Below, in pieces: positions 9,847 to 63,428 of a stretch of DNA of 64,000 nt; the stretch's first letter is position 1; each line of letters opens with the position of its first letter. Under the pieces are notes generated by a model. That model was not told the DNA's origin, did not search any database, and saw only the letters and a list, made by a program, of their open reading frames with translations. A program made the translations under genes and the position numbers. This stretch comes from Labilithrix luteola (lineage in GTDB: Bacteria; Myxococcota_A; Polyangia; Polyangiales; Polyangiaceae): positions 11,121,377 through 11,185,376 of the forward strand of contig NZ_CP012333.1 in the NCBI RefSeq assembly GCF_001263205.1, given 5' to 3'.

Positions 9847-9858
9847 GAGCTTTTCCTC

Positions 9859-21027: not shown

Positions 21028-21086
21028 CCGCGGGAATCGAAGAGGCATCTGGCTGGTTTCGGCCCCACCGTCCCTCGTGGTAGGAC

Positions 21087-22088: not shown

Positions 22089-22128
22089 CCTTCTCCGACA
22101 CTCGCCCGAATTCGATCGCCCTCGCCCC

Positions 22129-27641: not shown

Positions 27642-27643
27642 CG

Positions 27644-45315: not shown

Positions 45316-45982
45316 TGTCTCGAGCGCAGTCCAGGACGAGGCGGCGAGCCTCTCTTGCTGCGCTCGCGGCTCTGATCTTCGGTGCGAAGATCGCTCGCGC
45401 CGACGCTCCCCTGCCCGCATCGAGAGCTCGGCCGCTGGCTCCTCGAGTGCGCAGCCTGTGCCTGCGCGAGGCAAGGCATACCTACGTTGTGCGACCAAAC
45501 GTAAGAAAAAATCATTCTGAGTGATCGCGGGCGCGCGTTGCCGGTGATTGCGATGGTTATGGGGCGGCGCAACACGATGGCAGTTGCCCCTGCGCAGCGG
45601 ACACAGAGTCGAACATTCATGTGCACACCGAGGCCCTGGTCGGCGTGACGACCGTGGCTCGATCGCACGAGACGGTCGTCGCCCAGTTCTAGCAGCGACC
45701 CACGCCTCGTATCGGACTGCCGACGAATCGACGTCGTGCAGTTACGAATTCAGCGGGTCGCGTTCGTAAAGGACGCGAACCCAAAAGATTGAATCGGCAA
45801 TTGGCTCACCCCTCGGCAACGTCCGGGTCGGGTGCGACACCTCATCGTTTTTTGTAAAGCGTCATCGACGATTGAGGAGTGCCAATCGTCAATCGCGCCA
45901 GTGTCACCTTGGTTGGTTCAATCCCTTTGCGATAGGCGATTTTCTCCGCCGCATTCGCGAAAGGGAGAGGAGCGGTCACCGT

Positions 45983-47740
45983 ATGCTTTTCAGTAGGTCC
46001 GGTCTGGTCGGCGTTGCTGTTACGAGTCTCCTTGGATCGTTCGTAGCGGTGGGATGTGGCGCGGACGGTGGCAGCGATCTGCCGTCGGAGACCCTGTCCG
46101 TGGACAGCAGCGCGCCGCAGCAGGAGGAGGACAACTCGACGCGGCTTCCCGGTCCGAGCGACGATCGCGACGCCTCCACAGGGAAGGACGCCGGAAAGGA
46201 CGCCGGAAAGGACGCCGGGAACGACGCCTCCACAGGGAAGGACGCCGGAAAGGACGCGGGACCTGCACCCGACCCGGGTGCTTCTTGCACCACCGTCGAT
46301 CAGATGACATCGCGCACGTGCGGAATGTGCGGCAAGCAGCAGGCCATTTGTCAGTCCGACGTCAACGGGACCCTCACGTGGAGCGATTACGGCCCGTGCC
46401 TCAACGAGGTTGGTGAGTGCATTCCCGGCGCGACGAAGGCGTGTGGGGACTGCGGTACCCAGACGTGCTCGAACACCTGCGGCTGGGGAACATGCGCGAG
46501 CCAACCCGCGAATCACTGCTCGCCCGGAACCGTCGACCGCACGGTGGCGGGTTGCCCTCAGGGTGGCTGGAAGAGTCGAACGTGCGATGGCACGTGCCAA
46601 TGGTCGGGCTATGCACTCACGTGCAGCCTTCCCACACCCGTTGATCTCTTCGCGGGCGGGTACAGCTACTCGACGTACATCCGCGGAAGCGACGGCGCGC
46701 TGTACGGTTGGGGGCGCAATACCGCCGGTCAGCTCGGTGGCCCCGACACCGACGACAAGCGCAAGATATCGCCGGGGTCGTTCGGTGACATCGTCTCGGT
46801 CCAGGCGGGTGGCGGTACTTCGTCGACGAACGGCTTCGCGTGCGCGGCCTTCGGGAACGGCAGCGCGAAGTGCTGGGGGAGCATCAGCAGCTCGTACACG
46901 TTCGGCGACGGCTCGACGACCACCTCGTCGACCGGCGTGACGCCCAACGGGTTCGAGGCAAACGTCAAGCAGATGGTCGTCGGCTACTCGAACGGCTGCG
47001 GCGTGTTCGCGGACGGCTCCGCGAAGTGCTGGGGCTACAACTACTACGGGCAGCTCGGCAACGGACTCACGACGGATTCGAAGACGCCCGTCGCCGTCAC
47101 CGGCCTCACGGACGCCAAACAGCTTGGCCTGGGCTACTACACCGTCTGCGCTCGCAAGGGCGACGGCTCGGCGTACTGCTGGGGCTACAACACCAACGGG
47201 ATGATCGGCGACGGAACGACCACCAACCGAAGCACGCCCACCCTCGCGATCGCCAGCGGAGTCGCGTCGGTCGCGCCTGGCTACTACCACACGTGCGCCG
47301 CCATGACGGACGGCACGGCCAAGTGCTGGGGCCAGAACACGAACGGCGAAATCGGAAACGGGGCGGGCGGAAGCAGCGCATCGAACGTCACGTCTCCAGC
47401 CACGGTCTCCGGCATCGACGGGGCCGGCCAGCTCTCGGGCGTCGCCGAGGTCTGCACCGGATATGGCATCAGCTGCGCGCGACTCTCGGACGGTCGCGTC
47501 GCGTGCTGGGGCCGCAACAATTACGGGCAGCTCGGCATCGGCAGCACGACCCCCTCGTCGGCGAACGTACCGAAGCTTGTCGGCGGCATCACGGCCGCGA
47601 CCAAGCTGGTGTGCGGCTACCAGCATGCTTGTGTCATCGACGTCGATAACCAGGTGAAGTGCTGGGGTGACGGCCAGTACGGGCAGATCGGTAACGGCGG
47701 AACCGCCGTTGCGACCACCGCCCAGCTCGCGACCTTCTAG
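45983..47740 (+). CDS. Lipoprotein: DAGKDAG repeats, Cys-rich module, then RCC1-like beta-propeller repeats
   Basis: Lipobox VAVGC. (DAGKDAG)n repeats. A 12-Cys module CTTVDQ...CGMCGKQ...CGDCGTQTCSNTCGWGTC. At least seven RCC1-type repeats (CWG.N.YGQLGNG). Confidence 0.85.
   Translation: MLFSRSGLVGVAVTSLLGSFVAVGCGADGGSDLPSETLSVDSSAPQQEEDNSTRLPGPSDDRDASTGKDAGKDAGKDAGNDASTGKDAGKDAGPAPDPGASCTTVDQMTSRTCGMCGKQQAICQSDVNGTLTWSDYGPCLNEVGECIPGATKACGDCGTQTCSNTCGWGTCASQPANHCSPGTVDRTVAGCPQGGWKSRTCDGTCQWSGYALTCSLPTPVDLFAGGYSYSTYIRGSDGALYGWGRNTAGQLGGPDTDDKRKISPGSFGDIVSVQAGGGTSSTNGFACAAFGNGSAKCWGSISSSYTFGDGSTTTSSTGVTPNGFEANVKQMVVGYSNGCGVFADGSAKCWGYNYYGQLGNGLTTDSKTPVAVTGLTDAKQLGLGYYTVCARKGDGSAYCWGYNTNGMIGDGTTTNRSTPTLAIASGVASVAPGYYHTCAAMTDGTAKCWGQNTNGEIGNGAGGSSASNVTSPATVSGIDGAGQLSGVAEVCTGYGISCARLSDGRVACWGRNNYGQLGIGSTTPSSANVPKLVGGITAATKLVCGYQHACVIDVDNQVKCWGDGQYGQIGNGGTAVATTAQLATF
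46286..46605 (+). repeat. Dispersed repeat copy 1, encoding the Cys-rich module (copy 2 at 50458-50775)
   Basis: About 80% nucleotide identity to 50458-50775, aligned by eye from ctgcaccac(c/g)gtcgatcagat... through ...cgaacgtgcg. Confidence 0.7.
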
Positions 47741-47810
47741 TCACGCGTGATGGCGACCGACGCGATATCTCCCCGTCGCGTCGGGTCCCCCATACCGTGT
47801 ACCGCGCCGT

Positions 47811-47886
47811 CCTGATTGGGAATCAGGCGGAGCCCCCCGGCGCTGCAAGACGCCGCTATCAAAACTGCCCCTGATTGACAATCAGG
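47811..47886. promoter_or_regulatory. Two copies of palindrome CCTGATTG-N-CAATCAGG spaced 59 bp apart, upstream of lipoprotein gene 47964
   Basis: cctgattgggaatcagg (47811-47827) and cctgattgacaatcagg (47870-47886). Both are followed by GCG. Confidence 0.45.
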
Positions 47887-47963
47887 CGTCCTGTCTCATC
47901 CCACTGCTCCGAAACCAATCGTCGAGCGGTATCCAACAAAACTGTAGTTAGGAGGATTTCCAT

Positions 47964-49349
47964 ATGCGCCACGCAACCGCGTTCGTCGCGCCTCTCGCGC
48001 TGATTGGTTTCTTCGTCGCCTGTAGCAGCAACTCGTCACGAGCGACGTTCCGCGGCGACGTCAATAGCAGCGACGCCCGGGCCCCGGAGGCTGGCACGGA
48101 CCCCAGCAGCGGGACCTTCGTGGAGGACGCCAACGCCCCCCTATGCGATCGGCTCGACTGCAAGGTGGCCGATTGCGGCGAAGGTCCCACCACCACGCTC
48201 GTGGGCAAGGTCTACGATCCGGCGGGAGCGAACCCGCTCTACAACGTGCAGGTCTACATCCCGAAGCTGGAGCCCGGAGAAGAGCTTCCGCCCCTGGCCG
48301 ACACCACCGTCGACGGGGTCGCGTGCGAGACCTGCGCCAGCGTCGTCGTGAACCCCCTGAGGAGCGCCATCACGAACGAGAAGGGGGAGTTTACCCTCGA
48401 GAACGTTCCGGTCGACAAGAACGTCCCCGTCGTCATCCAGGTCGGCAAGTGGCGCCGAAAGTTCGAGATCGAAGTCAAGAACGCGTGTGACGAAAACAAG
48501 GTCTCCGACCGCACACTCAAGCTCCCGAGGAACGGCTCCGAAGGCGATATGCCTCAAATCGCCGTCTCGACGGGTGGCTGCGACGCGCTCGAGTGCCTGC
48601 TCCGCGGGATCGGAGTCGACGACAACGAGTTCGTCCAAGGCCACGGCGGATCAGGCCACGTGCACGTGTTCAAGGGTGAGTTGGGCGAGATGGGCGCACC
48701 GGCTCAGTCCTTCTGGAACGACGCCGAGCAGCTCAAGAAATACGACATGGTGCTCCTCTCCTGCGAATGCGGCGAGAACCTGCCGAACAAGGGCGGCAGC
48801 GCGCAGGGAGCGCGCGGGTCGATGTACGATTATCTGAATGCGGGCGGCCGCGTGTTCGCGACGCACTTTCATTACAGCTGGTTCAGGTATTCACCCTCGT
48901 ACGACTTCCGCCAAATCGCGAGTTGGGGAAGCAGCGATTCGAGCTCCGGTGACTACAACGTCAACATGGACTTCCCCAATGGTGACATGCTCGCCCGCTG
49001 GCTCGTCGAGACAGGCGGCTCGTCCACCCTCGGCAAGGTCCCGCTGACCGACGCGACGGGATCGATAACGCGCGTGAACAGTCCCGCGACCACATGGATC
49101 TCGAGGCCGTCTGCCCCGAAGTTCTTGAGCTTCAATACGCCCGTCGACGTCCCCGAGGACGAGCAGTGCGGGCGCGCGGTCTTCAGCGATGTCCACGTCA
49201 CGGGCAATGGAGGCCCGTCGAGCATCTCGGGTTGCTCGATCAGCGCGGGCGGGCTGAGCGGCCAGCAGAAGGCGCTCGAGTTCCTCTTCTTCGACCTGTC
49301 GTCGTGCGTGCAGAAGATCGAAGATCCGCCGACGCCCCCGACGAAATAA
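47964..49349 (+). CDS. Hypothetical Cys-rich lipoprotein with carboxypeptidase-regulatory-like N-terminal fold
   Basis: RBS TAGGAGGA. Lipobox FFVAC. N-terminal segment KVYDPAGANPLYNVQVYI. Many Cys residues. Confidence 0.75.
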   Translation: MRHATAFVAPLALIGFFVACSSNSSRATFRGDVNSSDARAPEAGTDPSSGTFVEDANAPLCDRLDCKVADCGEGPTTTLVGKVYDPAGANPLYNVQVYIPKLEPGEELPPLADTTVDGVACETCASVVVNPLRSAITNEKGEFTLENVPVDKNVPVVIQVGKWRRKFEIEVKNACDENKVSDRTLKLPRNGSEGDMPQIAVSTGGCDALECLLRGIGVDDNEFVQGHGGSGHVHVFKGELGEMGAPAQSFWNDAEQLKKYDMVLLSCECGENLPNKGGSAQGARGSMYDYLNAGGRVFATHFHYSWFRYSPSYDFRQIASWGSSDSSSGDYNVNMDFPNGDMLARWLVETGGSSTLGKVPLTDATGSITRVNSPATTWISRPSAPKFLSFNTPVDVPEDEQCGRAVFSDVHVTGNGGPSSISGCSISAGGLSGQQKALEFLFFDLSSCVQKIEDPPTPPTK

Positions 49350-49361
49350 CAAGACTCGCAA

Positions 49362-50000
49362 GTGATTCGCAGTCCCCATTTCACATTGGCACTCGCACTT
49401 TCGGCGGTCGTCGCTGCCTGCACGACGACCGCCGCGCCCTCGCCCTCCCCCTCGCCTGACGGGGATGCGGTTGTCGTCCAGCGGACGGCGCAGCCCTGCG
49501 TGCCGGGCGAGGTCACGCTTCCCATTGGCGCGTTCGACATGACATCGAGCGAAGGCGGAGGCAGGGCGTGCGCGGTCGGCAACGTCCTCGACGAGGACGG
49601 CAAGTTCGCCGCGATCGCGAGCGCCGGTTCCGCGACGCACGAGCTCGCAGGGCGTGCCGTGAACGGCTGCATCGGTGTCGAGTTCGGCGACGACATCCTG
49701 CTTTCGTCGTTCATCATGAAGATGCGGCCGACGCATGGCGCGTGCGGGCACTCGTGCACGCCGGGCGTCGAGACCGGCTGCGGCACGGGCTGGAAGGTGG
49801 CCATCTTCGTCGGGCCGACGCTCGAGGAGCTCGAGTTCCTCCAGCAGCTTTCGCTCACGACAGAGGACGTCTTCGAGTATCGCGTCGCTGTCTTCAAATC
49901 CAATCGTGCGCGCTACGCGGTCATCTGTCGGGAGCCGACGCCGGAGACGGGCGACGATGTCGAAATCGACGCTCTCGCCGGCTTCTGCCAAGTCCAATGA
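49362..50000 (+). CDS. Hypothetical Cys-containing lipoprotein
   Basis: GTG start. Lipobox AVVAAC. 212 aa. No clear RBS. Confidence 0.5.
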   Translation: MIRSPHFTLALALSAVVAACTTTAAPSPSPSPDGDAVVVQRTAQPCVPGEVTLPIGAFDMTSSEGGGRACAVGNVLDEDGKFAAIASAGSATHELAGRAVNGCIGVEFGDDILLSSFIMKMRPTHGACGHSCTPGVETGCGTGWKVAIFVGPTLEELEFLQQLSLTTEDVFEYRVAVFKSNRARYAVICREPTPETGDDVEIDALAGFCQVQ

Positions 50001-50136
50001 GTCCGAACGATTGACAGTTTGCGGCGGGATAGAGGCGCGCACCCCGTCCCTTCGCCTCGCCGATCGACCAGCCGTCACATTGCTGCAGGCCCTCCGCTGC
50101 AGTGGGAATCCGTAGTGGGTAGTAAGGAGCGAGATT

Positions 50137-51297
50137 ATGCGTTCGAGAAGGTCTGGTCTGGTTGGATTCGCCATTGCTGGTCTCGTCGGCGCGTACGCGG
50201 TGATCGGGTGCAGCGCTGACGGCGGCGGCGTCGAGCCCGACGGTCTCGAGCTCGATCTCGCGGACAGTGGGGAGGACGCGACCGAGCCTGAGTCGTCCAC
50301 CGTCCTTCCGCCAAGCACGGACGCATCCGCCCAGGACTCAGGCCCCAAAGATGCGGGCAAAGACGCTGCCAAAGACGCCGGCAATGATGCGGGCAAAGAC
50401 GCGGGCGGTACCGTAGCCAAGGATGCCGGCGCTCCCCCGCCCACCCCGTGGACCCCCTGCACCACGGTCGATCAGATCGCCGCGCGGAGCTGCGGAATGT
50501 GCGGCAAGCAGACGGCCATCTGTCAGGAAGTCTACGGGGAGCTCGTTTGGACCGATTACGGCCCATGCCAGAACGAAGCAGGAGAGTGTCTGCCTGGCGC
50601 GACACAGGCGTGCGGAAACTGCGGGACCCAGACGTGCTCGAACACGTGCGGATGGGGATCGTGCACCGGGCAGCCCCCCTCGAGCTGCACGCCGGGAACC
50701 GTCGAGTACACGCAGGCGGGGTGTCCGACCGGCGGATACAAGAACCGAGCGTGCGGGACGGCGTGCTCGTGGGACCCCTATACCGTCGCCTGCGCTGTCC
50801 CCACGGCTCCGAACAAGATGACGATCTCCGCCACGGTCGGCACCATCGTGAAACAGCAGTACAGGTTCCCGGACGACACGGCCCCGAAGCCAAACACCTC
50901 GTGCAACGGCCTAACGACCACCAACGTCCGTTCGTTCCCCGTCGAGGTGGCGAACCCGACGTCGCAGACGGCGACGCTCACCGTGTTCAACTCGAAGTCG
51001 CCGACGACGGGCGCCGATGTCGATACGGTCATTTGGTACTACAAGGGTGAGGCGCTGCCGATGTCCGACGCCGAACGCGGCCAGTGCACCGGTACGGTGA
51101 CCGACTCTTGCAGCGGGACGACTCCCATCAACCTCTGCGGGAATGCGAGCGACACGAGCTCCCTGCTCGCTGGCGTCCCGAACGTCACGATCCCGCCGAA
51201 CGGCAAGATCGTCGTATTCACCGCGCTCTGGGGCTCCAGCACCAGCGCCGGAGACGGCACGATCATGCTGAACCTCAAGACGGACAAGCTTCAGTGA
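50137..51297 (+). CDS. Lipoprotein sharing the DAGKDA-repeat plus Cys-rich N-terminal module with gene 45983, but with a different C-terminal domain
   Basis: RBS AAGGAG. Lipobox VIGC. Identical-pattern Cys module CTTVDQIAARSCGMCGKQTAICQ...CGNCGTQTCSNTCGWGSC. The C-terminal 200 aa are unrelated to RCC1. Confidence 0.8.
   Translation: MRSRRSGLVGFAIAGLVGAYAVIGCSADGGGVEPDGLELDLADSGEDATEPESSTVLPPSTDASAQDSGPKDAGKDAAKDAGNDAGKDAGGTVAKDAGAPPPTPWTPCTTVDQIAARSCGMCGKQTAICQEVYGELVWTDYGPCQNEAGECLPGATQACGNCGTQTCSNTCGWGSCTGQPPSSCTPGTVEYTQAGCPTGGYKNRACGTACSWDPYTVACAVPTAPNKMTISATVGTIVKQQYRFPDDTAPKPNTSCNGLTTTNVRSFPVEVANPTSQTATLTVFNSKSPTTGADVDTVIWYYKGEALPMSDAERGQCTGTVTDSCSGTTPINLCGNASDTSSLLAGVPNVTIPPNGKIVVFTALWGSSTSAGDGTIMLNLKTDKLQ
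50458..50775 (+). repeat. Dispersed repeat copy 2 (Cys-rich module)
   Basis: See copy 1 at 46286-46605. Confidence 0.7.
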
Positions 51298-51427
51298 GCT
51301 GACCCACGTTCCGGCGACGCACGGAGCGGCGGGCTTGGCGAACCTCAGGGTGCCGCTCGCCGGACGTGCTCAGCCAATCTTCGTCGATCGCTCACGCTCG
51401 AGAGTCTGACGGCATAAGTTTCAACAA

Positions 51428-54028
51428 ATGGATTCGTCGACATTCGACGAAGGCAGAATTCAAAACATGGCTATAACGATGACTCGGCATCGCGTGGTTC
51501 TCGCGGCTTGCGCGCTTGTCGCCGCGGTTATCGCGTGGGGATGTAGTGGCAGTGACGGGCCTTCGAATATTCCCGATTGCCAAGTTGGACAGGAGCTCTG
51601 TTCGGGGGTTTGCGTCGACGTCGGTGCCAACCGCGCCAACTGCGGAGCGTGTGGCAAGTCGTGCTCCAGCGGCGAAGCATGCAACGACGGCAAGTGCGTC
51701 CTCTCGTGCACCGGAAGTACGACGAACTGCGAAGGGGCGTGCGTTGACACGCGAGTCGACAGCGCCAACTGCGGAGCGTGTGGAACCGCGTGCACCGGGG
51801 GCGAGGTGTGCAGTGCTGGCAAGTGCGCACCGTCGTGCAGCGGTGGCACCACGCAATGCGGGTCGAAGTGCATCGATACGAAGCTCGATAACGCCAACTG
51901 CGGAGCATGCGGCAAGGCGTGTGGCAAGGGCGAGCTCTGCTCGAACGGTGCATGTGCTCCGAGCTGTGGCGCCGGCACCGCCGAGTGCGGAGGCAAGTGC
52001 GTAGAGACGGAGAACGACCCGGCCAACTGCGGTGCGTGCGGGAATGCATGTCCCGAAGGCAAGGTCTGCTCGCACGGAACCTGCTCGGTGACATGCCTTG
52101 GCGGCAGCACCAAGTGCGGTGGCAAGTGCGCGGACACGGCAGTCGACCCGGCCAACTGCGGAGGGTGCTTGCTCGAATGTGCGAGCGGTCAAGTCTGCTC
52201 GAACGGAGCGTGCTCGCTCTCGTGCGTCGGCGGGACGAAGAAGTGCGGGAACAGGTGCGTCGACACGGCCGCCGATCCGGCAAACTGCGGCGCCTGCGGA
52301 AATTCATGCACGAACGGCCAGGCATGTTCGAACGGCACGTGCTCGTTGAAGTGCGCGGGCGGAACCACGAAGTGCGGAAGCAAGTGCGCGGATACGGTCA
52401 CCGACCCGGCCAACTGCGGCACATGCGGGAACGCGTGTCCGAGTGGTCAGGTCTGCTCGAACGGCGCGTGCACCCTGTCGTGTGCCGGCGGCACGACCAA
52501 GTGCGGGTCCAAGTGTGCCAACACGACGAACGATCCTTCCAACTGTGGCGCCTGCGGGACCGCGTGCACCGGCGGCACCGTGTGTTCGAACGGCACGTGC
52601 TCGCTGACGTGTGTTGGCGGCACCACCAAGTGCGATTCGAAGTGTGTCGACACGAAGAGCGATTCGTTCAACTGCGGAAGCTGCGGAACCGCGTGCGATT
52701 CCGGTGAGCGATGCTCGAACGGCGTCTGCGCGAGCGCGGGGACCGGCACGGGCGAGGTATGCGGCGTCGGCACGACCGGTTGCAGCGGTGTCTGCGTCGA
52801 CACGTCGAGCAACGCGAGCCACTGCGGTGCGTGTGGCAATGCCTGCACGTCGGGCAGAACGTGCAAAAACAGCGTGTGCGTTTGCAACCCGGGCGAGTCC
52901 GCGTGCGGTACGGGCTGCGCGAACTTGTCGACGAACAGCTTGAACTGCGGTGCGTGCGGCAACGCATGTGGCGCGAACCAGGTCTGCGCCGGCGGCACGT
53001 GTATGGGGATCACGCAAGGCACGGGCGGTGCGGGCGGTAGCCTGACGGGCTCGGCCCTGCCGAAGGTCGCCGTCATGGCGGCTGCTTCGACGCAGGGGCC
53101 GGATCTTCAGGCAAAGCTCGTCGCGACCAAGCTGTTCTCTGCAGTCGATTTCGTCAGCGTCAGCAGCACCTCCACGCCCACTCTCGCGACGATGAAGACG
53201 TACGACGCGATCGTGGCCTGGACCTATTCGTCGGTGGCCTCGGCGTTCGGCGACAACCTCGCGCAGTACCTCGAGGCAGGCGGCGGCGTGGTCCTCGCCG
53301 ACTACGAGTCGCAGGAGACGGGGACGTATGCACTCACCGGCCGTTACCAGACGGACTACACACTCTCGACGCCGGTCCCCTCGAGCAACTGGGTGAAGAC
53401 TCCCGTGACGCTCGGCACGATCAACGAGCCCGCGAGCCCGCTCATGGCTGGCGTAACCTCCTTCGGTTACCCCTCCACCTCGTCGGCGTATCACCTGCCA
53501 GCGTCGAGCTTCAACAAGAACAACCCGGTCATCGTGGCGTCGTACTCCGACGGCATTCCCGCGGTCGTGCGAGGCGTGATCAACGGGCACACCGTGGTCG
53601 AAATCAATGGCTCGGGCGCTTCGACGACATCGTACTCGTCCGGATGGGACCCGGCGAGCAGCGGAGCCAGGCTGTTCGCGAACGCGCTGATCTTCACGAT
53701 TCCGTCGCCGACGATCACGACGTCAAAGCAGCTCGATTTCGGCAACCAGCAAGTCTTCACCTCGTCCTCGCCTCAGCTGGTGACGTACACGAACGCGAGC
53801 AACGTGCCCCAGACGATCACGGCGCTCGGCCTCAGCGGCAGCCACATCGGCGACTTCGCGATGGCGCCGTCGTCCGGGCTGCCGGTCACGCTCCAGCCGG
53901 GAGATACGTTCGTCGTGAACGTGGGCTTCTCGCCTGCTGGAACGGGCCTCCGCGCAGCGATGCTCTCCGCGACCATCGCGAGCACGAACGCGCAGGCGAC
54001 GACGTTGCTCACCGGCACCGGCAACTGA
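51428..54028 (+). CDS. Lipoprotein with 13 tandem myxobacterial cysteine-rich repeats (CxxCGxC type) and a C-terminal Ser/Thr-rich domain
   Basis: Lipobox AWGC. About 13 repeats of ~28 aa with pattern C.DT..D..NCGACG..C..G..CS.G.C...C.GGTTKCG.KC, encoded by ~84-bp tandem nucleotide repeats between 51600 and 52990. Alternative start at 51467. Confidence 0.85.
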   Translation: MDSSTFDEGRIQNMAITMTRHRVVLAACALVAAVIAWGCSGSDGPSNIPDCQVGQELCSGVCVDVGANRANCGACGKSCSSGEACNDGKCVLSCTGSTTNCEGACVDTRVDSANCGACGTACTGGEVCSAGKCAPSCSGGTTQCGSKCIDTKLDNANCGACGKACGKGELCSNGACAPSCGAGTAECGGKCVETENDPANCGACGNACPEGKVCSHGTCSVTCLGGSTKCGGKCADTAVDPANCGGCLLECASGQVCSNGACSLSCVGGTKKCGNRCVDTAADPANCGACGNSCTNGQACSNGTCSLKCAGGTTKCGSKCADTVTDPANCGTCGNACPSGQVCSNGACTLSCAGGTTKCGSKCANTTNDPSNCGACGTACTGGTVCSNGTCSLTCVGGTTKCDSKCVDTKSDSFNCGSCGTACDSGERCSNGVCASAGTGTGEVCGVGTTGCSGVCVDTSSNASHCGACGNACTSGRTCKNSVCVCNPGESACGTGCANLSTNSLNCGACGNACGANQVCAGGTCMGITQGTGGAGGSLTGSALPKVAVMAAASTQGPDLQAKLVATKLFSAVDFVSVSSTSTPTLATMKTYDAIVAWTYSSVASAFGDNLAQYLEAGGGVVLADYESQETGTYALTGRYQTDYTLSTPVPSSNWVKTPVTLGTINEPASPLMAGVTSFGYPSTSSAYHLPASSFNKNNPVIVASYSDGIPAVVRGVINGHTVVEINGSGASTTSYSSGWDPASSGARLFANALIFTIPSPTITTSKQLDFGNQQVFTSSSPQLVTYTNASNVPQTITALGLSGSHIGDFAMAPSSGLPVTLQPGDTFVVNVGFSPAGTGLRAAMLSATIASTNAQATTLLTGTGN

Positions 54029-54179
54029 ACGCAACCGAACGCTAGCGGGCTTGGGCGGCGCCAAACGTGCGCTGCCCAGGCCCGCGCTCGTTTCGACGCC
54101 TCGAACGTTGTTGATCATCCCGCTCCTCCGTGCTCCGTGCCTTCAAGGGCCAGATCACGAACGGCGAGTTCGCGGGCAA

Positions 54180-55295
54180 TCAGCGCCCGGGCATCGGATG
54201 CCCCGCCTTCGCGCGGGCCTCGATCATGTTCTTCAACTCTTCGACTTCGATCGACTGATTGAGCGCCTGCTCGAGCGTGATGAAGCGGCGCATGTAGAGG
54301 TTCAGGAGCGACTGGTTCAGCGTGAGCATGCCGAACTTGTCCTGGCCGACCTGCATCTGACCGTAGATCTGATGGACCTTGTTCTCGCGAATCAGGTTCC
54401 GGATGGCGGGGTTCGGCACCAGGATCTCCATGGCGAGGCAGCGGCCCGGCGCACCGGCGCGCGGCAAGAGCTGCTGGGTGATGACGCCCTGGAGAACGAA
54501 CGACAGCTTGTTGCGGATCTGGTCCTGCTGGTGGGGCGGGAAGACGTCGATGATACGGTTGATCGTCGACACCGCGCTGTTCGTGTGGAGCGTGGCGAAG
54601 ACCAAGTGACCGGTTTCGGCGATGGTCAGCGCGGCCTCGATGGTGTCGAGGTCGCGCATTTCGCCGACGAGCACGACGTCGGGGTCCTGGCGAAGAACGT
54701 AACGGAGCGCGCCCTTGAACGACGCGGTGTCCGAGCCGACTTCGCGCTGATTCACGACGCACATCTTGTGCGGGTGCAAGTACTCGATCGGGTCTTCGAT
54801 CGTAAGGATGTGCATCCGCTGCTCGCTGTTGATCTTGTCGATGATCGACGCGAGCGTGGTGCTCTTGCCCGAACCGGTGGGTCCGGTGACGAGGACGAGG
54901 CCGTTCGGCTTGTTCGCGATGTCCGAGATGACGGTCGGCAGACCGAGCTCGTCGAACGAGAGGATCTTGAAGGGAATCGTTCGAATCGCGCCGGCGATCG
55001 TGGTGCGCTGCAGGTAGATGTTGGCGCGGAAACGCGAGAGGTTCTTCACGCCGAACGAGAGGTCGAGCTCGCTGTCCTTTTCGAACGAGATCTTCTGCTC
55101 CTCGGTCATGATCGAGTAGCAGAGCTGCTTCGTGTCGACCGGGGTGAGCGGCGGCAGCTTGAGCGGAATGACCTCGCCGTCGATGCGCAGGAGCGGCGGC
55201 GCGCCTGCCGTGATGTGCATGTCGCTCGCGCCCTTCTCGACCATCGCCTTGAGGAGCTGGTGGAGATTGACCTTGAGTTCGCCAGCCTGGGTCAT
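54180..55295 (-). CDS. pilT: Type IV pilus retraction ATPase PilT
   Basis: Walker A GPTGSGKST. Motifs ILTIEDPIE and LRQDPDV. C-terminal AIRNLIRE. RBS AAGGA. Confidence 0.9.
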   Translation of the reverse strand: MTQAGELKVNLHQLLKAMVEKGASDMHITAGAPPLLRIDGEVIPLKLPPLTPVDTKQLCYSIMTEEQKISFEKDSELDLSFGVKNLSRFRANIYLQRTTIAGAIRTIPFKILSFDELGLPTVISDIANKPNGLVLVTGPTGSGKSTTLASIIDKINSEQRMHILTIEDPIEYLHPHKMCVVNQREVGSDTASFKGALRYVLRQDPDVVLVGEMRDLDTIEAALTIAETGHLVFATLHTNSAVSTINRIIDVFPPHQQDQIRNKLSFVLQGVITQQLLPRAGAPGRCLAMEILVPNPAIRNLIRENKVHQIYGQMQVGQDKFGMLTLNQSLLNLYMRRFITLEQALNQSIEVEELKNMIEARAKAGHPMPGR

Positions 55296-55379
55296 GCCTT
55301 GATTCCTTCTCGATTCCTTCGACTCAGTCGGCGCATATCAGCCAGCGCGTTAGTCGCAATGCCCTTCGGATAGGCAGAA

Positions 55380-55537
55380 TTTTCACAGGAAGGTAGGAAG
55401 AACGGAAGGATTTAAAAATCGCCCGGCGTAAGCGCCAAACTGCGCTTGCTAGGGAATTGAATGCCCCGATGACGACGCCGTGTCGACTTGCCCTCTCCGC
55501 CAAAAAGACTTCCGACCTTCCGACCTTCCTGTGAAAA
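55380..55537. promoter_or_regulatory. 18-bp inverted repeat pair separated by ~120 bp in the AT-richer pilB-pilT intergenic region
   Basis: ttttcacaggaaggtagg (55380-55397). The reverse complement of ccgaccttcctgtgaaaa (55520-55537) matches 17 of 18 positions. The right arm is preceded by tandem ttccgacc ttccgacc. Confidence 0.45.
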
Positions 55538-55596
55538 ATCTCGGGTCGAATCCATCGGTGTTTGATGGATGTCTGTTTATCCGAACGGCATAGGCG

Positions 55597-57303
55597 TCAG
55601 TCTGCCATCGTGACGCGGAGGATTTCCTCCGTCGTCGTGACTCCGTCGAGCACCTTGCCGATGCCCGACATTCGGAGAGTCATCATGCCTTGCTTGATCG
55701 CGGCGGCCTTGAGCTCCGCAGTCGACGAGCCCTGGAGAACGAGCTCCTTGAGCGTGTCGTTGAAGCGCATGACTTCGTAGAGAGCCACGCGGCCTTTGTA
55801 GCCCGTGCCGTTGCACGTGCGGCAGCCGAAGCCTTTCACGAGACGACCCGGCGCGGCTTGGATCTGCGCCGGCGTGAAGCCGACCTCCTGCAGCGCCGCG
55901 GGGTCGATCTGGATCTGCTGCCGGCAGTCGCCACACACCTTACGCGCGAGACGCTGGGCGAGAACGAGGTTGACCGACGCCGTGATGAGGAACGGCTCGA
56001 CACCCATGTTGAGGAGACGCGAGATCGTTGCCGGAGCGTCGTTCGTGTGGAGCGTCGAGAGAACCATGTGGCCGGTGAGCGCGGCCTTGACCGCGATTTC
56101 CGCGGTCTCGAAGTCACGGATCTCGCCGACCATGATGATGTCGGGGTCCTGACGGAGGAACGAGCGGAGCGCCGCGGCGAAGTTCAGGCCGATCGAGTCC
56201 TGCATCTGCACCTGGTTGATGCCGTGCAGGTTGTATTCGACCGGGTCTTCGGCGGTGCTGATGTTCGTGTCGGGCTGATTGAGCTCGCTGAGCGCCGAGT
56301 AGAGCGTCGTCGTCTTTCCCGAACCCGTGGGCCCCGTGACGAGCACCATGCCCCAGGGCTGGTTGATGGCCCACTTGAAGTCCTCGAGGGGCTTCACGTC
56401 GAAGCCGAGCTTCGTCATGTCGAGCTGGAGGTTGCCCTTGTCGAGGAGGCGCATGACGATCTTCTCGCCCCACAGGGTCGGAAGAATGCTCACGCGGAAG
56501 TCCATCTCGCGGCCCTTGCCGAGCTTCAGCTTGATACGACCGTCTTGCGGGAGCCGGCGCTCGGCGATGTCGAGCGAGCTCATGATCTTCAGACGGCTGA
56601 CGATCGCGTTCTTCAACTTGAGGGGCGGCGTCATCTCTTCGACGAGCACGCCGTCGACGCGGTAACGCACGCGGAGCCGCTTTTCGTAGGGCTCGATGTG
56701 AATGTCGCTCGCGCCCTTCTTGATGGCGTTGAGCAGGATCATGTTCACGAGACGAACGACGGGAGCGTCTTCGCTGGCGCGCTCGAGCTCGAGGGCGTTG
56801 AGATCTTCTTCGTCGCCGGTGAACTCGATCTCCGACTCGTCGAAGCCGGCCATGACCTCCTCGTACGAGGGGCCGACCGAGTAATAACGCTCGACGGCGG
56901 CGAGGATGGCCGCCTCGCTCGCGATGACCGGCTCGATGTTGTAGCCGGTGAGGAACTTCAGGTCGTCGATGGCGTGGAGGTTCGTCGGGTCGGCCATCGC
57001 CACGATGAGCGAGCTACCCGCGCGCGAGACCGGGATGACCCGGTGCTTCTCGCACTGGTCCTTCGACACCAGCTTCAGGATCTCGGCGTCGATCTCGTAC
57101 TCTTCGAGATTGATCGTCGGGACGCGGTACTGCTGAGACAGGAAGTTGGTGATTTCCTGGTCACTGATGAAGCCGAGCTTCGCCAGCGTGTAACCCAGGT
57201 TCTGCCCGGAGCGATTCTGCTCGTCCTGCGCCTGCCGCAGCTGCGTGAGCGAGATCAGCTTCTCTCGAACGAGCAGCTCACCGAGCCTGTTCTGGTTCGC
57301 CAT
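55597..57303 (-). CDS. pilB: Type IV pilus assembly ATPase PilB
   Basis: N-terminal GSPII domain, Walker A GPTGSGKTTT, C-terminal Cys4 zinc motif. ATG 57303 preferred over the upstream TTG at 57315. Confidence 0.9.
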   Translation of the reverse strand: MANQNRLGELLVREKLISLTQLRQAQDEQNRSGQNLGYTLAKLGFISDQEITNFLSQQYRVPTINLEEYEIDAEILKLVSKDQCEKHRVIPVSRAGSSLIVAMADPTNLHAIDDLKFLTGYNIEPVIASEAAILAAVERYYSVGPSYEEVMAGFDESEIEFTGDEEDLNALELERASEDAPVVRLVNMILLNAIKKGASDIHIEPYEKRLRVRYRVDGVLVEEMTPPLKLKNAIVSRLKIMSSLDIAERRLPQDGRIKLKLGKGREMDFRVSILPTLWGEKIVMRLLDKGNLQLDMTKLGFDVKPLEDFKWAINQPWGMVLVTGPTGSGKTTTLYSALSELNQPDTNISTAEDPVEYNLHGINQVQMQDSIGLNFAAALRSFLRQDPDIIMVGEIRDFETAEIAVKAALTGHMVLSTLHTNDAPATISRLLNMGVEPFLITASVNLVLAQRLARKVCGDCRQQIQIDPAALQEVGFTPAQIQAAPGRLVKGFGCRTCNGTGYKGRVALYEVMRFNDTLKELVLQGSSTAELKAAAIKQGMMTLRMSGIGKVLDGVTTTEEILRVTMAD

Positions 57304-57466
57304 GTTTGGGGACAAAGCGTCGATGATGCGACGGGATACGTCAATGGGCTCGCAGCACCGACGTGCGTGGTGACGTTCACGCCGGCCTTTCGAGAGGGTG
57401 ACGCCGTCCGTCCGATCGCAGGGGCACCAGGAGTTGCAGCGTTGTGGCAGACTGTGGGTCCGCCGA

Positions 57467-58672
57467 ATGCCGACCTTCTTCGACCGCTTCTTCGGAAAAG
57501 GACGCGCCGCGACGGCCGCTCAGGCCGCCGAGCTGCGAGGGGACCTCGCCAAGGCAGCTGAGCTCTACGGCGAGGCCGACCTGCCGGAGGAAGCCGCGCG
57601 GGTCATCCTCCTCCGCGGCGACAGCGAGACCGATCCGCGGGCGCGCCTCCAGTTCTTCGCCCAAGCCCGCCAGTTCGCACCGGCCGACTCGGACATCCAC
57701 AACGAAGCCCGAAGAAAGCGGGCAGAGCTCCTGCTCGCGCTTGCCGGCGACGCGACCGTGAGCGCTGTGGCTCGCCACGACGTGCTCGAGGCCGCGAAGG
57801 ACCTCGAAGCGGTCGGCGAGCCGCTCAGGGCCGCCGAAGCCTATGCGCGCGCCGGCGACAAGGAGGGCGAAGCGCGGGCGCTCCAGGCGGCGGGCGACGT
57901 CGAGCGCCTCGAGTTCCTCTTGTCGACCGAGCAGCACAAGGAGCGCATCTCCCGCGCACGTGACGACCGCACGAAAGACGTCGACCTGCTCATCGCGTGC
58001 GGCCGACGGCGCGAAGCGCTCGGTGCGCTCGACGAGCTCCTGCGCGAGATCCACAAGACGTCGAACGGAGACTTCGGCGTGCGTGTCGACGAGACGTCGC
58101 TCCGAGAGCGCGCCAACGGACTGCGCGCCCGCAAGATCGAGGCGCCCATCGTGGAGGTCGAGATCGGCGAGAGCCACGTCCGGCTCGTGCTCGGACGCGA
58201 GATCGTGATCGGCCGGAGCGAGGGCACCATCCGCGTCAGCTCCAACGCCATCAGCCGCCAGCACCTCCGGATCTTCCGCGAGGGCGACGCCGTCGTGGTA
58301 CGCGATCTCGAGAGCCGGAACGGCACGCAGCTCCGGGGCGTGAACCTCGCGGGCACCTTTCCCATCCACGAGGGCCTCGAGTTGAAGCTCGGACGCGAAG
58401 TCCCTCTACGAATCACGCCGAGCGAGGCGCTGCCGGGTGCCATCGAGATCGAGGTCGCCGGTCAGCGGTATCTCGCCACGCTCGGCCCGACGAACCTGCC
58501 CGCCTTCGGATTCGAGCTGGTTGCCGGTCCTGACGGTTGGGTGGAGCTGCTCGCGCGGCACCCGGCGTTCCAGGGCGACGTCGAACTCGTGGGACAGACG
58601 ACACTTCTCGCGGGTGACGCCATCGCCACGACGCGGGGTGGTGCACCGGCGATCCGGTTCGTGAGCACCTGA
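57467..58672 (+). CDS. TPR-like N-terminal / C-terminal FHA domain protein, divergent from pilB
   Basis: ATG 57467. Ala/Glu-rich helical N-terminus. FHA segment VIGRSEGTIRVSSNAISRQHLRI...SRNGTQLRG. Confidence 0.7.
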   Translation: MPTFFDRFFGKGRAATAAQAAELRGDLAKAAELYGEADLPEEAARVILLRGDSETDPRARLQFFAQARQFAPADSDIHNEARRKRAELLLALAGDATVSAVARHDVLEAAKDLEAVGEPLRAAEAYARAGDKEGEARALQAAGDVERLEFLLSTEQHKERISRARDDRTKDVDLLIACGRRREALGALDELLREIHKTSNGDFGVRVDETSLRERANGLRARKIEAPIVEVEIGESHVRLVLGREIVIGRSEGTIRVSSNAISRQHLRIFREGDAVVVRDLESRNGTQLRGVNLAGTFPIHEGLELKLGREVPLRITPSEALPGAIEIEVAGQRYLATLGPTNLPAFGFELVAGPDGWVELLARHPAFQGDVELVGQTTLLAGDAIATTRGGAPAIRFVST

Positions 58673-58766
58673 GCGCGCCTTCCGAGCCGCAAATCACGCG
58701 CTATTTTCGATCCCGAGACAAAGAAATGACGGGTCTATTTTCGGCCGCGAACTACTGTGTGGGCCC

Positions 58767-60182
58767 ATGTCGGTCTCGCGCAGGCTTGGTCAAGCTTCTC
58801 TCGCTATCGTCACGCTTCTCGGAGCGGCCGTAGGCGCCTGCGCGTCGTCGGGTTCGGGGGAAGGAACCGAGTCCCCGTCGCCGAGCTCGTCGACCACGAC
58901 GCCGCCGACCACGACGAACAAGACCGACGATCCGATCCCCGATCAGCCCGACAAGGCGATCACGAAGGACGGCCAGCTCCTCTTCGCGGACGGCGCGCCG
59001 ATCGTCGGCCTCGACTACGCGTCGGGCGATACGAAGGGCACGACCGACGCGACCGGCAAGTTCACGTACGAAGACGGCAACACGATCAAGTTCAGCCTCG
59101 GCGACATGATCTTCGGAGAGCCGAAGGGCGCCGCGATTCTCACGCCGTACCAGCTGGCGGCCTCGGTCACGTGCGACGACACCGATCCGGTCAAAGTGCT
59201 CGTCGGTCTCCTCGAAACCCTCGACCAGGACAACAACGCGGCGAACGGCATCACGCTGCCGAAGGTCACGGCGGGCGGCACGGCCAAGGCGCTCATCCAG
59301 GCAACGGCCGAGGAGATCAACGCGTTCGTCGCGGCAAACGCGCCCGGCAAGACGCTCCCCGCCGCCGCCGACGGCCTCAAGGCGTTCATCACCGTCTTCG
59401 ACGCGGAGGCCTACACGGCCGGCGGTGCGTTGGAAAAATTCGCGATCACCACCGCTCCCGTTCGCTCCCAGGGCGTCGCGACGGACGGGACGAACGTCTA
59501 CTTCTCAGGCAACTACGGCTTCGACATCACCGACCCGGTCACCCTTGCGAGCAAGAAGTCGAACGCGCTCGCGATCCCCGGCGAGCTGATGCTCGCGGGC
59601 AGTGATCACATCGGCGACATCGACGTCTGGAACGGTACGATCTACGCGCCCATCGAAGACAGCAACGGTTACAAGCACCCCAAGATCGTTCTCTACGATG
59701 CGGCCTCGCTCCAGGCCGGAACTCAGTACGACATCCCGACGACGTTGCAGAGCGAAGGCGTTCCGTGGGTCGCCGTCGACGGTCCGCGCGGGTTCGCATA
59801 CATGGCTGAGTGGACCACCACGCCGGTCATCCACGTCTTCGACCTCGCGACGATGACGTTCAAGCACGACATCGCGCTCTCGAAGACGCTCGGGCGCATC
59901 CAGGGTGGGAAGGTCTACAAGGGGCTCCTCTACTTCTCGATGGACGACGCGAACAAGACCGTCGGCAAGATCCATCTCGCCACCGGCATGGTGATGGACC
60001 TCTTCACCATCAACATCTCGACGATCGAGCTCGAAGGCCTCGTGCTCTATCCGCGCGCGGCGGACGGCTCGATGCTCCACACCCTCGACATCGACCGCAG
60101 CGGCGGCAAGCTCCAAGCGAACCCCGAGTACCGCCACTTCAAGGCCACGAAAGAGCCGCTCCGCTGGAAGGCGTGCCCCTGA
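58767..60182 (+). CDS. Hypothetical lipoprotein
   Basis: Lipobox AVGAC. Ser/Thr/Pro linker. 471 aa. Confidence 0.65.
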   Translation: MSVSRRLGQASLAIVTLLGAAVGACASSGSGEGTESPSPSSSTTTPPTTTNKTDDPIPDQPDKAITKDGQLLFADGAPIVGLDYASGDTKGTTDATGKFTYEDGNTIKFSLGDMIFGEPKGAAILTPYQLAASVTCDDTDPVKVLVGLLETLDQDNNAANGITLPKVTAGGTAKALIQATAEEINAFVAANAPGKTLPAAADGLKAFITVFDAEAYTAGGALEKFAITTAPVRSQGVATDGTNVYFSGNYGFDITDPVTLASKKSNALAIPGELMLAGSDHIGDIDVWNGTIYAPIEDSNGYKHPKIVLYDAASLQAGTQYDIPTTLQSEGVPWVAVDGPRGFAYMAEWTTTPVIHVFDLATMTFKHDIALSKTLGRIQGGKVYKGLLYFSMDDANKTVGKIHLATGMVMDLFTINISTIELEGLVLYPRAADGSMLHTLDIDRSGGKLQANPEYRHFKATKEPLRWKACP

Positions 60183-63210: not shown

Positions 63211-63428
63211 CGAAGCTTCAAACGCGAGCGTATCAGAAGGAACGCCCCGTTCGCGCATGTCGACCGATCGTTCGACGCGTTGTCGAGAAACCGTCCACGC
63301 GGGCTAGACTGCCTTTTCCACGGCCGCGCTTCCATAAGTAGAATTCACCAGCAATCTCGGCGGCTACGGCGGCGGCGATGGGAGCTCGCCACGCCGCCTT
63401 CGAGTCGTGCCACATTGGGGAGCGCGTC

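What the first reader, a model, noticed from the sequence alone, without database searches (positions are those of the whole stretch)
45983..54028. Five consecutive same-strand Cys-rich lipoprotein genes as a possible secreted or surface cassette
All five ORFs have lipoprotein signal peptides and many cysteines: RCC1 propeller, carboxypeptidase-regulatory-like, small Cys protein, module paralog, and a 13-repeat Cys protein. Gaps are short (12-223 bp) with RBSs. AT-richer promoter-like DNA lies upstream (45480-45980) and paired palindromic operators lie at 47811-47886. The organisation suggests a coordinately expressed extracellular system of unknown function, possibly adhesion, predation or a kin-recognition-like role.
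Basis: inference. Interest (0 to 1): 0.7.

Follow-up and report, generated by a model that had tools for sequence, protein, structure and literature searches.

The report
Cluster of cysteine-rich envelope lipoprotein genes
Five neighbouring genes of the soil myxobacterium Labilithrix luteola do encode cysteine-rich, lipid-anchored envelope proteins, but related genomes keep these genes apart, so this looks like a local gathering of ordinary binding-type lipoproteins and not a dedicated five-part machine.

Summary
Window 45983-54028 carries five real + strand genes (GC3 0.82-0.85). Each has a lipoprotein signal peptide, and cysteine content is 3-10% against about 0.7% elsewhere in the window. 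The source is Labilithrix luteola DSM 27648.

- g1: Cys-rich module plus RCC1 propeller.
- g2: transthyretin-like domain plus a ThuA/GATase1-like domain with invariant His/Cys residues.
- g3: small 8-Cys protein.
- g4: the g1 module (53% identical) plus a collagen-binding/PPC-like beta-sandwich.
- g5: 11 (not 13) Stig1/MXAN_6577-type repeats, a weak ThuA-like domain and a choice-of-anchor-D Ig domain.

The "coordinated cassette" reading is only partly supported. In relatives, g2 homologues are solo genes in a conserved, unrelated locus, g3 orthologues lie between bamA and gyrA, g4 homologues lie between groEL and recD2, and one g1 homologue is solo. Only one metagenomic relative keeps g1-like and g2-like genes together, behind an ECF sigma/anti-sigma pair. 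A strong hairpin follows g1. The two palindromes are real but not conserved.

Best reading: a lineage-specific cluster of anchor-linker-stalk-head envelope lipoproteins, probably outer-membrane binding proteins, with g2 a possible enzyme or metalloprotein, expressed as several transcription units. Interest is low to moderate.

The parts
45500..45982 (+). AT-richer non-coding DNA upstream of g1 (part of the 668-nt gap after the TPR gene that ends at 45315). Presumed promoter region. GGGAGAGGAG Shine-Dalgarno at 45964-45973.
   Evidence: GC 0.578 against 0.66-0.68 in the flanks. Sequence read. No sigma-70 consensus promoter was found.
45983..47740 (+). g1: 585-aa lipoprotein. Lipobox Cys25, (K/N)DAG low-complexity linker, 130-aa Cys-rich module (46268-46657), RCC1 beta-propeller (46658-47737).
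   Evidence: GC3 0.83. RCC1, RCC1_2 and WD40_RLD above the Pfam cut-offs. Module 53% identical to g4. Lipobox.
47743..47800 (+). GC-rich hairpin starting 3 nt after the g1 stop codon, with no T tract. Candidate transcript end or attenuator between g1 and g2.
   Evidence: MFE -28.9 kcal/mol, z -3.95, 1 of 200 shuffles folds as well. Not called by the T-tract terminator scan.
47811..47886 (.). Two exact palindromes CCTGATT-N3-AATCAGG (47811-47827 and 47870-47886), 59 nt start to start. The second contains TTGACA. Possible protein-binding sites upstream of g2.
   Evidence: Only 2 matches in 64 kb, 0.05 expected. Absent from all 32 related loci held at that point. The two can also pair with each other in an RNA fold.
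47964..49349 (+). g2: 461-aa lipoprotein. Lipobox Cys20, disordered linker, transthyretin-like/CarboxypepD_reg domain (about 48186-48503), ThuA/GATase1-like alpha/beta domain (about 48546-49313) with invariant H232, H234, H301, H411, C267, E268, D207. AGGAGG Shine-Dalgarno at 47951-47956.
49362..50000 (+). g3: 212-aa lipoprotein (GTG start, 12 nt after the g2 stop, no clear Shine-Dalgarno). Lipobox Cys20, PSPSPSP linker, 8 conserved Cys, CGHxC...GCGTGWK motif.
   Evidence: Alignment of 18 homologues. Only 24 homologue clusters in 5.8 billion proteins. No Pfam, NCBIfam or PDB match.
50137..51297 (+). g4: 386-aa lipoprotein. Lipobox Cys25, KDAG linker, Cys-rich module (50440-50802, paralogous to that of g1), C-terminal jelly-roll beta-sandwich (50812-51294). 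AAGGAG Shine-Dalgarno at 50125-50130.
51467..54028 (+). g5: 853-aa lipoprotein (Cys26). 11 tandem 43-aa, 8-Cys Stig1/MXAN_6577-type repeats (51575-53008), weak ThuA-like domain (about 53153-53533), choice-of-anchor-D Ig-like domain (about 53693-53986).
   Evidence: PF04885 191 bits, 11 stretches. NF041328 514 bits and NF012200 45.0 bits at its cut-off of 45. 129-nt DNA period. Repeat count. ThuA E 1.3e-3, below cut-off.
54045..54086 (.). 17-bp GC-rich hairpin between the convergent g5 and the pilT-like gene. Candidate bidirectional terminator that closes the cluster.
   Evidence: Fold of 54029-54178: z -2.79, 3 of 200 shuffles fold as well. pilT-like and pilB-like genes on the - strand.

Best explanation
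**What it is.** This is a lineage-specific cluster, in Labilithrix luteola, of five genes for disulfide-rich envelope lipoproteins.

**Shared building plan.** All five follow the same plan:
- an N-terminal lipid anchor;
- a flexible low-complexity linker (KDAG or PSPS repeats);
- a rigid Cys-rich spacer: the three-sub-repeat module in g1 and g4, and eleven Stig1-type repeats in g5;
- a distal globular head. The heads are an RCC1 propeller (g1), a transthyretin-like plus ThuA/GATase1-like pair (g2), a jelly-roll of collagen-binding/CBM type (g4), and a ThuA-like plus Ig-like pair (g5).

**How it most likely works (inferred).**
- The proteins are exported by Sec, lipidated at the lipobox cysteine and oxidatively folded in the periplasm.
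- Because none has Lys at +2, they are probably sorted to the outer membrane.
- There the heads bind polymers or partner proteins.
- g2 probably has a catalytic or metal site formed by the invariant HxH/HxH/H/Cys-Glu/Asp cluster at the top of its beta-sheet.

**Organisation.**
- The cluster arose by local duplication and domain shuffling (the g1/g4 module) and by juxtaposing genes that are separate in relatives.
- It is probably read as several transcription units: g1 alone, g2-g3 together, g4 and g5 uncertain. It is probably not one dedicated operon.

**Shown versus inferred.**
- Shown: gene reality, signal peptides, domain and fold assignments, and the lack of conserved synteny.
- Inferred: localisation, disulfides, the ligand-binding role, enzyme activity and the transcript structure.
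For: - **Coding and signals:**
- **Domains and folds:**
- **Source organism and family sizes:** (at least 3500 g2 homologues, at least 3 paralogues in L. luteola; 24 g3 clusters; 159 g4/g1 hits; 352 module representatives in 1.84 billion proteins; some proteins carry 5-20 copies of the sub-repeat).
- **g2 homologues:** those at 56-59% identity are solo genes in a conserved ExbD / esterase-like ... DUF6929 / Metallophos context on at least four independent contigs. They occur as tandem pairs in L003 and L006.
- **g3 orthologues:** between bamA and gyrA.
- **g4 homologues:** next to recD2, downstream of groES-groEL.
- **g1 homologue:** solo in L024.
- **Only recurring adjacency:** g1-like with g2-like.
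- **Transcript boundaries:** hairpins after g1 and after g5. The 12-nt g2-g3 gap was read.
- **g2 functional site:** five conserved His, an odd number (11) of conserved mature Cys, and perfect C206/C269 covariation, 21 CC against 24 non-Cys pairs.
- **Sorting:** none of the five has Lys at +2 or Ala at +7. These are the M. xanthus inner-membrane and matrix signals described in PMC3222651.
Against: - There are no expression, localisation or binding data of any kind.
- The comparison loci are 45-66% identical homologues, so some may be paralogues and not orthologues. The rest of the L. luteola genome could not be scanned.
- The same strand, short gaps and the 12-nt g2-g3 junction are compatible with co-transcription.
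- Five of the seven lipobox-positive ORFs in the window are contiguous. That is non-random and could reflect shared function, not only duplication.
- The g1-like/g2-like operon behind an ECF sigma factor in L017 shows that at least two of the families can work together.
- The sorting rule is extrapolated from a distantly related myxobacterium.
- Lipoboxes were tested only with a pattern, not with a trained predictor. The g5 lipobox (AWGC) is atypical.
Confidence: 0.6

Rival explanations
1. One reading: all five genes form one coordinately expressed cassette that builds an extracellular or surface system for adhesion, predation or cell-cell interaction.
For: - Same strand, gaps of 12-223 nt, Shine-Dalgarno sequences before g1, g2 and g4.
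- A single AT-richer region upstream.
- A strong hairpin only after g1 and after g5.
- A shared module in g1 and g4, and ThuA-like folds in both g2 and g5.
- The run of five lipoproteins is non-random.
Against: - The five-gene order is not seen in any of the 37 related loci.
- Homologues of g2, g3 and g4 each have their own conserved, unrelated neighbourhood.
- There is a hairpin after g1.
- No significant common upstream motif was found.
- No secretion, assembly or regulatory gene lies inside the cluster.
Confidence: 0.15
2. Only g1 and g2 (perhaps with g3) form a functional pair: an RCC1-propeller lipoprotein working with the ThuA/GATase1-like lipoprotein, in some lineages under an ECF sigma/anti-sigma envelope-signalling pair. 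On this reading g4 and g5 are bystanders.
For: - L017/L018 hold the closest g2 homologue (66% identity).
- Their order is ECF sigma, a 276-aa single-pass anti-sigma-like gene, then g1-like, g2-like, g1-like, g1-like.
- The first three genes have overlapping start and stop codons, and the later gaps are 37-95 nt.
- g2 and g3 are 12 nt apart.
Against: - The adjacency is seen in only one organism (two contigs).
- Other g2 homologues are solo or in tandem with themselves.
- A g1 homologue is solo.
- In the window a hairpin and 223 nt separate g1 from g2, and there is no ECF sigma gene nearby.
Confidence: 0.25
3. The proteins are TraA-like polymorphic kin-recognition receptors, with a Cys-rich stalk presenting a variable head.
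For: The general architecture, a Cys-rich repeat stalk plus a globular head on a membrane anchor, resembles what is proposed for TraA (PMC3325183, read).
Against: - No PA14 domain, no TIGR04201 repeat and no MYXO-CTERM hit in the Pfam or NCBIfam scans.
- The C-termini lack the tag.
- The anchor is N-terminal lipid, not C-terminal.
- There is no OmpA-like traB neighbour.
- Polymorphism was not assessed.
Confidence: 0.03
4. The lipoproteins are cargo or accessories of the adjacent PilB/PilT-type ATPases, that is of a type IV pilus or type II secretion-like machine.
For: pilT-like (54180-55337) and pilB-like (55597-57519, with an MshEN domain) genes lie immediately downstream.
Against: - They are on the opposite strand and convergent, separated from g5 by a strong hairpin.
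- There are no pilin, secretin, platform or prepilin peptidase genes in the window.
- No such ATPase genes lie next to the homologues in any related locus.
Confidence: 0.03

Closest known systems
MXAN_6577-like cysteine-rich proteins (NCBIfam NF041328) / bacterial Stig1-type repeats (Pfam PF04885)
   Same: g5 matches at 514 bits (cut-off 100) and 191 bits (cut-off 24). It has 11 tandem 43-aa units with 8 Cys each.
   Different: The family has no experimentally known function, and a full-text search for MXAN_6577 found no paper. g5 adds a lipoprotein anchor, a weak ThuA-like domain and a choice-of-anchor-D Ig domain.
ThuA-like / non-catalytic class I glutamine amidotransferase-like proteins (PDB 3rht, 4jqs, 1t0b; GIFT domain of IFT52)
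   Different: - No sequence-level match to Pfam ThuA or to any PDB chain.
- g2 is a lipoprotein with an N-terminal transthyretin-like domain and its own invariant His/Cys/Glu/Asp set.
- g2 and g5 are not detectably related by profile comparison (probability 1.4%).
TraA cell-surface receptor of Myxococcus xanthus
   Same: It works like TraA only in its general design: a Cys-rich repeat stalk proposed to present a globular binding head at the cell surface (PMC3325183).
   Different: No PA14 domain, a different repeat family, an N-terminal lipid anchor in place of MYXO-CTERM, and no TraB partner. None of the five is a member.
Bacterial RCC1-like repeat (RLD) propeller proteins
   Same: The C-terminal 360 aa of g1 pass the Pfam cut-offs for RCC1, RCC1_2 and WD40_RLD.
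   Different: g1 is fused to a lipobox, a KDAG linker and a Cys-rich module that has no Pfam or NCBIfam model. That module is found in only about 350 representative clusters.
Pre-peptidase C-terminal (PPC) / collagen-binding domains of clostridial collagenases, and CBM35-type jelly-rolls
   Different: Identity is only 7-11%, no Pfam match, and no protease or glycosidase domain is attached. The ligand is unknown.

Membership tests
Bacterial lipoproteins (Lgt/LspA/Lnt substrates) | N-terminal signal peptide with a positively charged n-region, an uncharged h-region and a lipobox ending in Cys | tested here: met
   A pattern test was positive for all five. The g3 lipobox Cys is invariant in 18 homologues, and those of g2 and g4 are invariant or nearly so. 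No trained predictor (LipoP or SignalP) was available, and the AWGC of g5 is atypical at position -2.
Bacterial lipoproteins (Lgt/LspA/Lnt substrates) | Actual lipid modification and membrane localisation | not testable with these tools
   This needs globomycin sensitivity, palmitate labelling and cell fractionation.
RCC1 repeat family (g1) | Repeats scoring above the Pfam gathering thresholds | tested here: met
   PF00415 131 bits (cut-off 21.7), PF13540 147 bits (22), PF25390 163 bits (150).
MXAN_6577-like Cys-rich protein / Stig1 (g5) | Score above the curated cut-off | tested here: met
   NF041328 513.6 bits (cut-off 100). PF04885 191.3 bits (cut-off 24.1) in 11 stretches.
Choice-of-anchor D domain (g5 C-terminus) | Score above the NCBIfam cut-off | tested here: inconclusive
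   NF012200 scores 45.0 bits, exactly at the cut-off of 45. The related Ig-like models (HYDIN/ASH) fall below their cut-offs.
Carboxypeptidase regulatory-like domain (g2) | Pfam score above the gathering threshold | tested here: not met
Class I glutamine amidotransferase (catalytic) (g2) | Cys-His-Glu triad at the nucleophile elbow and the C-terminal strands | tested here: inconclusive
TraA kin-recognition receptor | PA14 domain, TIGR04201 Cys-rich repeats, MYXO-CTERM tag and an adjacent OmpA-like traB (PMC3325183) | tested here: not met
   No such hits in the Pfam or NCBIfam scans of the five proteins. The C-termini lack the tag. The neighbours are a TPR protein and PilT/PilB-like genes.
Conserved operon / gene cassette | The same genes adjacent in several related genomes | tested here: not met
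   tblastn of all five proteins against 32 of the 37 loci fetched found co-occurrence only of g1-like with g2-like genes, in L017/L018. In the last five loci (L033-L037) only the called genes and their Pfam hits were inspected. The sample is limited, and no g5 homologue loci were examined.
Known anti-phage defence systems | Match to a PADLOC model | tested here: not met
   No hit at E <= 0.01 for any of the five proteins.

The most novel reading that the evidence does not exclude
The g2 family has at least 3500 clusters, mostly soil Polyangia, and no Pfam model for its main domain. It may be a new class of outer-membrane-tethered enzymes or metalloproteins on a ThuA/GATase1 scaffold, using the invariant HxH...C-E...HxH...H site. 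In Labilithrix-like bacteria it may work together with Cys-rich RCC1-propeller lipoproteins (g1 type) as an ECF-sigma-linked envelope module that captures and processes an extracellular polymer or prey-derived substrate. On this reading the window's cluster would be an expanded version of that module.
Probability: 0.15. Interest if true: 0.5.

Novelty: new member of a known kind. Interest (0 to 1): 0.25.

Why it matters
Large myxobacterial genomes are full of uncharacterised cysteine-rich secreted proteins and lipoproteins, and their roles in adhesion, predation and social behaviour are mostly unknown.

This locus gives clean domain maps for four such families:
- It shows that the public annotation is wrong. 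One protein is named "tryptophan synthase alpha chain", and the deposited starts of g2 and g3 are too late, which removes their signal peptides.
- It flags the g2 family as a large, conserved, probably catalytic or metal-binding family on a ThuA-like fold.

As a "system", however, the evidence points to an ordinary lineage-specific gene cluster. Its value lies in annotation and as a source of candidates, not in a new mechanism.

Tried and rejected
- **Exact-protein look-ups.** g2 and its L. luteola paralogues P0002 and P0078 were not on record, so the paralogues' own neighbourhoods could not be seen.
- **PDB sequence searches.** Single proteins and the g2 profile gave only noise.
- **Profile comparison.** The g2 family against the g5 ThuA-like domain showed no relationship (probability 1.4%).
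- **Palindromes as a conserved operator.** They are absent from all related loci, including the g1-like/g2-like intergenic region of L017.
- **Shared promoter or regulatory motif upstream of g1, g2, g4 and g5.** The best word, CCAATCGTC, occurs before g1 and g2 but is not significant (3 found, 0.79 expected, 7 of 100 shuffles reach 3). MAFFT of the four upstream regions shows nothing.
- **Consensus scans.** There was no sigma-70 promoter match, and T-tract terminator matches did not exceed chance.
- **Other screens.** Rfam, tRNA and PADLOC gave no hits. This argues against a riboswitch, a mobile island bounded by a tRNA, or a known defence system.
- **ECF sigma link.** No homologue of the L017 sigma or anti-sigma genes exists in the window.
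- **Fold library.** afdb50 was unavailable.
- **Literature.** I found nothing on these families or on this locus.

Full report
**1. The observation**

The window is high-GC DNA of about 66%. GC3 is 0.82-0.85 in those frames, against 0.48-0.63 for the long antisense ORFs that overlap them. An apparent sixth ORF at 54051-55373 (+) is the shadow of a - strand pilT-like gene.

The genes are:
- g1: 45983-47740
- g2: 47964-49349
- g3: 49362-50000 (GTG start)
- g4: 50137-51297
- g5: 51467-54028

All five begin with a basic n-region, an uncharged hydrophobic stretch and a lipobox (AVGC, FVAC, VAAC, VIGC, AWGC). Cysteine makes up 3.0-10.6% of residues. The median of the other ORFs in the window is about 0.7%.

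The same crude lipobox test flagged 7 of the 36 ORFs in the window, and five of those are this contiguous run. My own estimate for such a run is p of about 0.002, so the clustering is not chance.

- g5 has 11 repeats, not 13.
- g3 has no visible Shine-Dalgarno sequence.
- The gaps are 223, 12, 136 and 169 nt.

The AT-richer upstream DNA is real: GC is 0.578. The two exact palindromes CCTGATT-N3-AATCAGG at 47811 and 47870 are also real. Only 0.05 such matches are expected in the window.

**2. Source organism and annotation**

The proteins are 99-100% identical to entries of Labilithrix luteola, whose genome is 12.19 Mb. g3 is AKJ09_10561 and g4 is AKJ09_10562.

The deposited names and starts are poor:
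- g2 and its paralogues are called "Tryptophan synthase alpha chain".
- The deposited g2 (394 aa) and g3 (166 aa) start too late and lose the signal peptide that their homologues conserve.

**3. What each protein is**

*g1.*
- Lipobox, then a (K/N)DAG low-complexity linker.
- A 130-aa Cys-rich module made of three sub-repeats of the form C..CxxCG...C...C.W...C.
- An RCC1 propeller that scores above the Pfam cut-offs.

*g4.*
- It shares the signal peptide, linker and module with g1: 53% identity over 243 aa, E 1e-70.
- It ends in a jelly-roll beta-sandwich. The AlphaFold model has pLDDT above 90 over residues 100-386.
- The shared module has no Pfam or NCBIfam model.
- It is rare: 352 representatives at E <= 1e-3 among 1.84 billion proteins. 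Some are long proteins with 5-20 copies of the sub-repeat.

*g2.*
- The model is confident, with pLDDT 87.6.
- The family is large, with at least 3500 hits and at least three copies in L. luteola.
- In 45 homologues, H232, H234, H301, H411, C267, E268 and D207 are invariant, and H303 is kept in 93%.
- The mature protein has 11 conserved Cys, an odd number.
- C206 and C269 covary perfectly: 21 Cys-Cys pairs against 24 pairs with neither.
- By secondary structure these positions lie at the C-terminal ends of the parallel strands. That is where catalytic GATase1 enzymes keep their triad.
- I therefore infer a catalytic or metal-binding site. No residue-level superposition was possible.

*g3.* A small lipoprotein with eight conserved Cys and a CGHxC...GCGTGWK motif. 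It has no family or structural match, and only 24 homologue clusters exist.

*g5.*
- Lipobox, then eleven 43-aa, 8-Cys Stig1/MXAN_6577-type repeats. NF041328 scores 514 bits and PF04885 scores 191 bits.
- A domain with a weak ThuA hit (E 1.3e-3).
- A choice-of-anchor-D Ig-like domain at its cut-off.

None of the five has a MYXO-CTERM-like C-terminus.

**4. Are the five a unit?**

I collected 37 related loci and ran tblastn with all five proteins against 32 of them. For the last five I inspected only the called genes and their Pfam hits.

- **g2 homologues** at 56-59% identity are solo genes. They sit in a conserved, unrelated context (ExbD, a divergent esterase-like gene ... DUF6929, Metallophos) on at least four independent contigs. 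More distant ones occur as tandem g2-g2 pairs (L003 and L006).
- **g3 orthologues** lie between bamA and gyrA in two lineages. L. luteola has a single copy among the 24 clusters. Between the two lineages bamA is 85% identical and the g3-like gene 71%.
- **g4 homologues** (52-55%) lie directly upstream of recD2. In L025/L026 they are also downstream of groES-groEL.
- **A g1 homologue** (59%) is solo.
- **The one recurrence** is in L017/L018, which hold the closest g2 homologue (66%). The order there is ECF sigma, a 276-aa single-pass anti-sigma-like gene, then g1-like, g2-like, g1-like, g1-like. The first three genes have overlapping start and stop codons.

So the five-gene order is not conserved, and only a g1-g2 link has comparative support. 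The caveats are that homologues at this distance may be paralogues, that no g5 loci were examined, and that the L. luteola genome itself could not be scanned.

**5. Regulation**

- A strong hairpin starts 3 nt after the g1 stop codon (z -3.95).
- A 17-bp hairpin separates g5 from the convergent pilT-like gene (z -2.79).
- The g3-g4 and g4-g5 spacers fold no better than shuffled sequence.
- g2 and g3 are 12 nt apart.
- The palindromes lie between the g1 hairpin and g2, and the second one contains TTGACA. They are absent from all related loci, and no regulator gene is nearby.
- No shared upstream motif is significant. The sigma-70 and terminator consensus scans are uninformative.
- There are no Rfam, tRNA or PADLOC hits.

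My inference is that g1 is transcribed alone and g2-g3 together, with g4 and g5 uncertain.

**6. Most likely mechanism**

All five follow one design: lipid anchor, flexible linker, disulfide-rich spacer, globular head. By the M. xanthus sorting rules, Lys at +2 means inner membrane and Ala at +7 means matrix (PMC3222651). None of the five has either residue. By extrapolation, the outer membrane is the likeliest destination.

The heads are classic binding folds. The g2 head may be an enzyme or metalloprotein. A Cys-rich stalk presenting a head recalls the model proposed for TraA (PMC3325183). The TraA features (PA14, TIGR04201 repeats, MYXO-CTERM, a TraB partner) are all absent here. That makes this an analogy of design, not family membership.

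**7. Verdict**

The envelope or extracellular reading is supported.

The locus is a lineage-specific cluster of members of uncharacterised but typical myxobacterial lipoprotein families. The most interesting lead is the g2 family as a possible new ThuA-fold enzyme or metalloprotein, together with its occasional ECF-sigma-linked pairing with g1-type propellers.

Interest is 0.25. Novelty: new member of a known kind.

Noticed in passing
L019 7061-10600; L032 5064-8573; L027 53-646: Orthologues of the small 8-Cys lipoprotein g3 lie immediately downstream of bamA (Omp85 with five POTRA domains) and upstream of gyrA in two Labilithrix-like lineages. This raises the possibility of a link to outer-membrane biogenesis.
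   Followed up: partly
window 47964-49349 and 49362-50000: The public annotation names g2 and its paralogues 'Tryptophan synthase alpha chain', which is a misannotation. The deposited g2 (394 aa) and g3 (166 aa) start too late and lose the lipoprotein signal peptides that their homologues conserve.
   Followed up: yes
L017 6724-14966 (also L018): In a soil metagenome relative, an ECF sigma gene and a 276-aa single-pass anti-sigma-like gene overlap by 4-8 nt with the first gene of a g1-like, g2-like, g1-like, g1-like array.
   Followed up: partly
window 48579-48581 and 48768-48770 (g2 residues 206 and 269): Across 45 family members these two positions are either both Cys (21) or both non-Cys (24). 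This is a subfamily-specific disulfide right beside the invariant D207 and C267-E268.
   Followed up: yes
window 54180-57519 (- strand): A pilT-like gene and a pilB-like ATPase gene (the latter with an MshEN domain) converge on g5. No other pilus or secretion genes are in the window. An FHA-domain gene starts divergently at about 57.4-58.7 kb.
   Followed up: partly
window 21084-29527: A Bat-like aerotolerance-type operon: MoxR AAA ATPase, DUF58, VWA protein(s) and a BatD-domain protein.
   Followed up: no
window 2304-5312 (-), 8476-12594 (-), 17977-19248 (+): The window is dense in Ser/Thr signalling genes: an FHA-ABC transporter fusion with three FHA domains, a PP2C phosphatase, a 911-aa FHA protein and a Ser/Thr kinase.
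   Followed up: no
window 58665-60182 (+) and 61849-63303 (-): Two further ORFs with lipoprotein-type signal peptides and no Pfam domain. They are not Cys-rich (0.4-0.8%), unlike the cluster.
   Followed up: no
window 47811-47886: Because each palindrome is self-complementary, the two copies can also pair with each other in an RNA fold of the g1-g2 spacer (whole spacer z -2.6). An RNA-level role cannot be excluded.
   Followed up: partly
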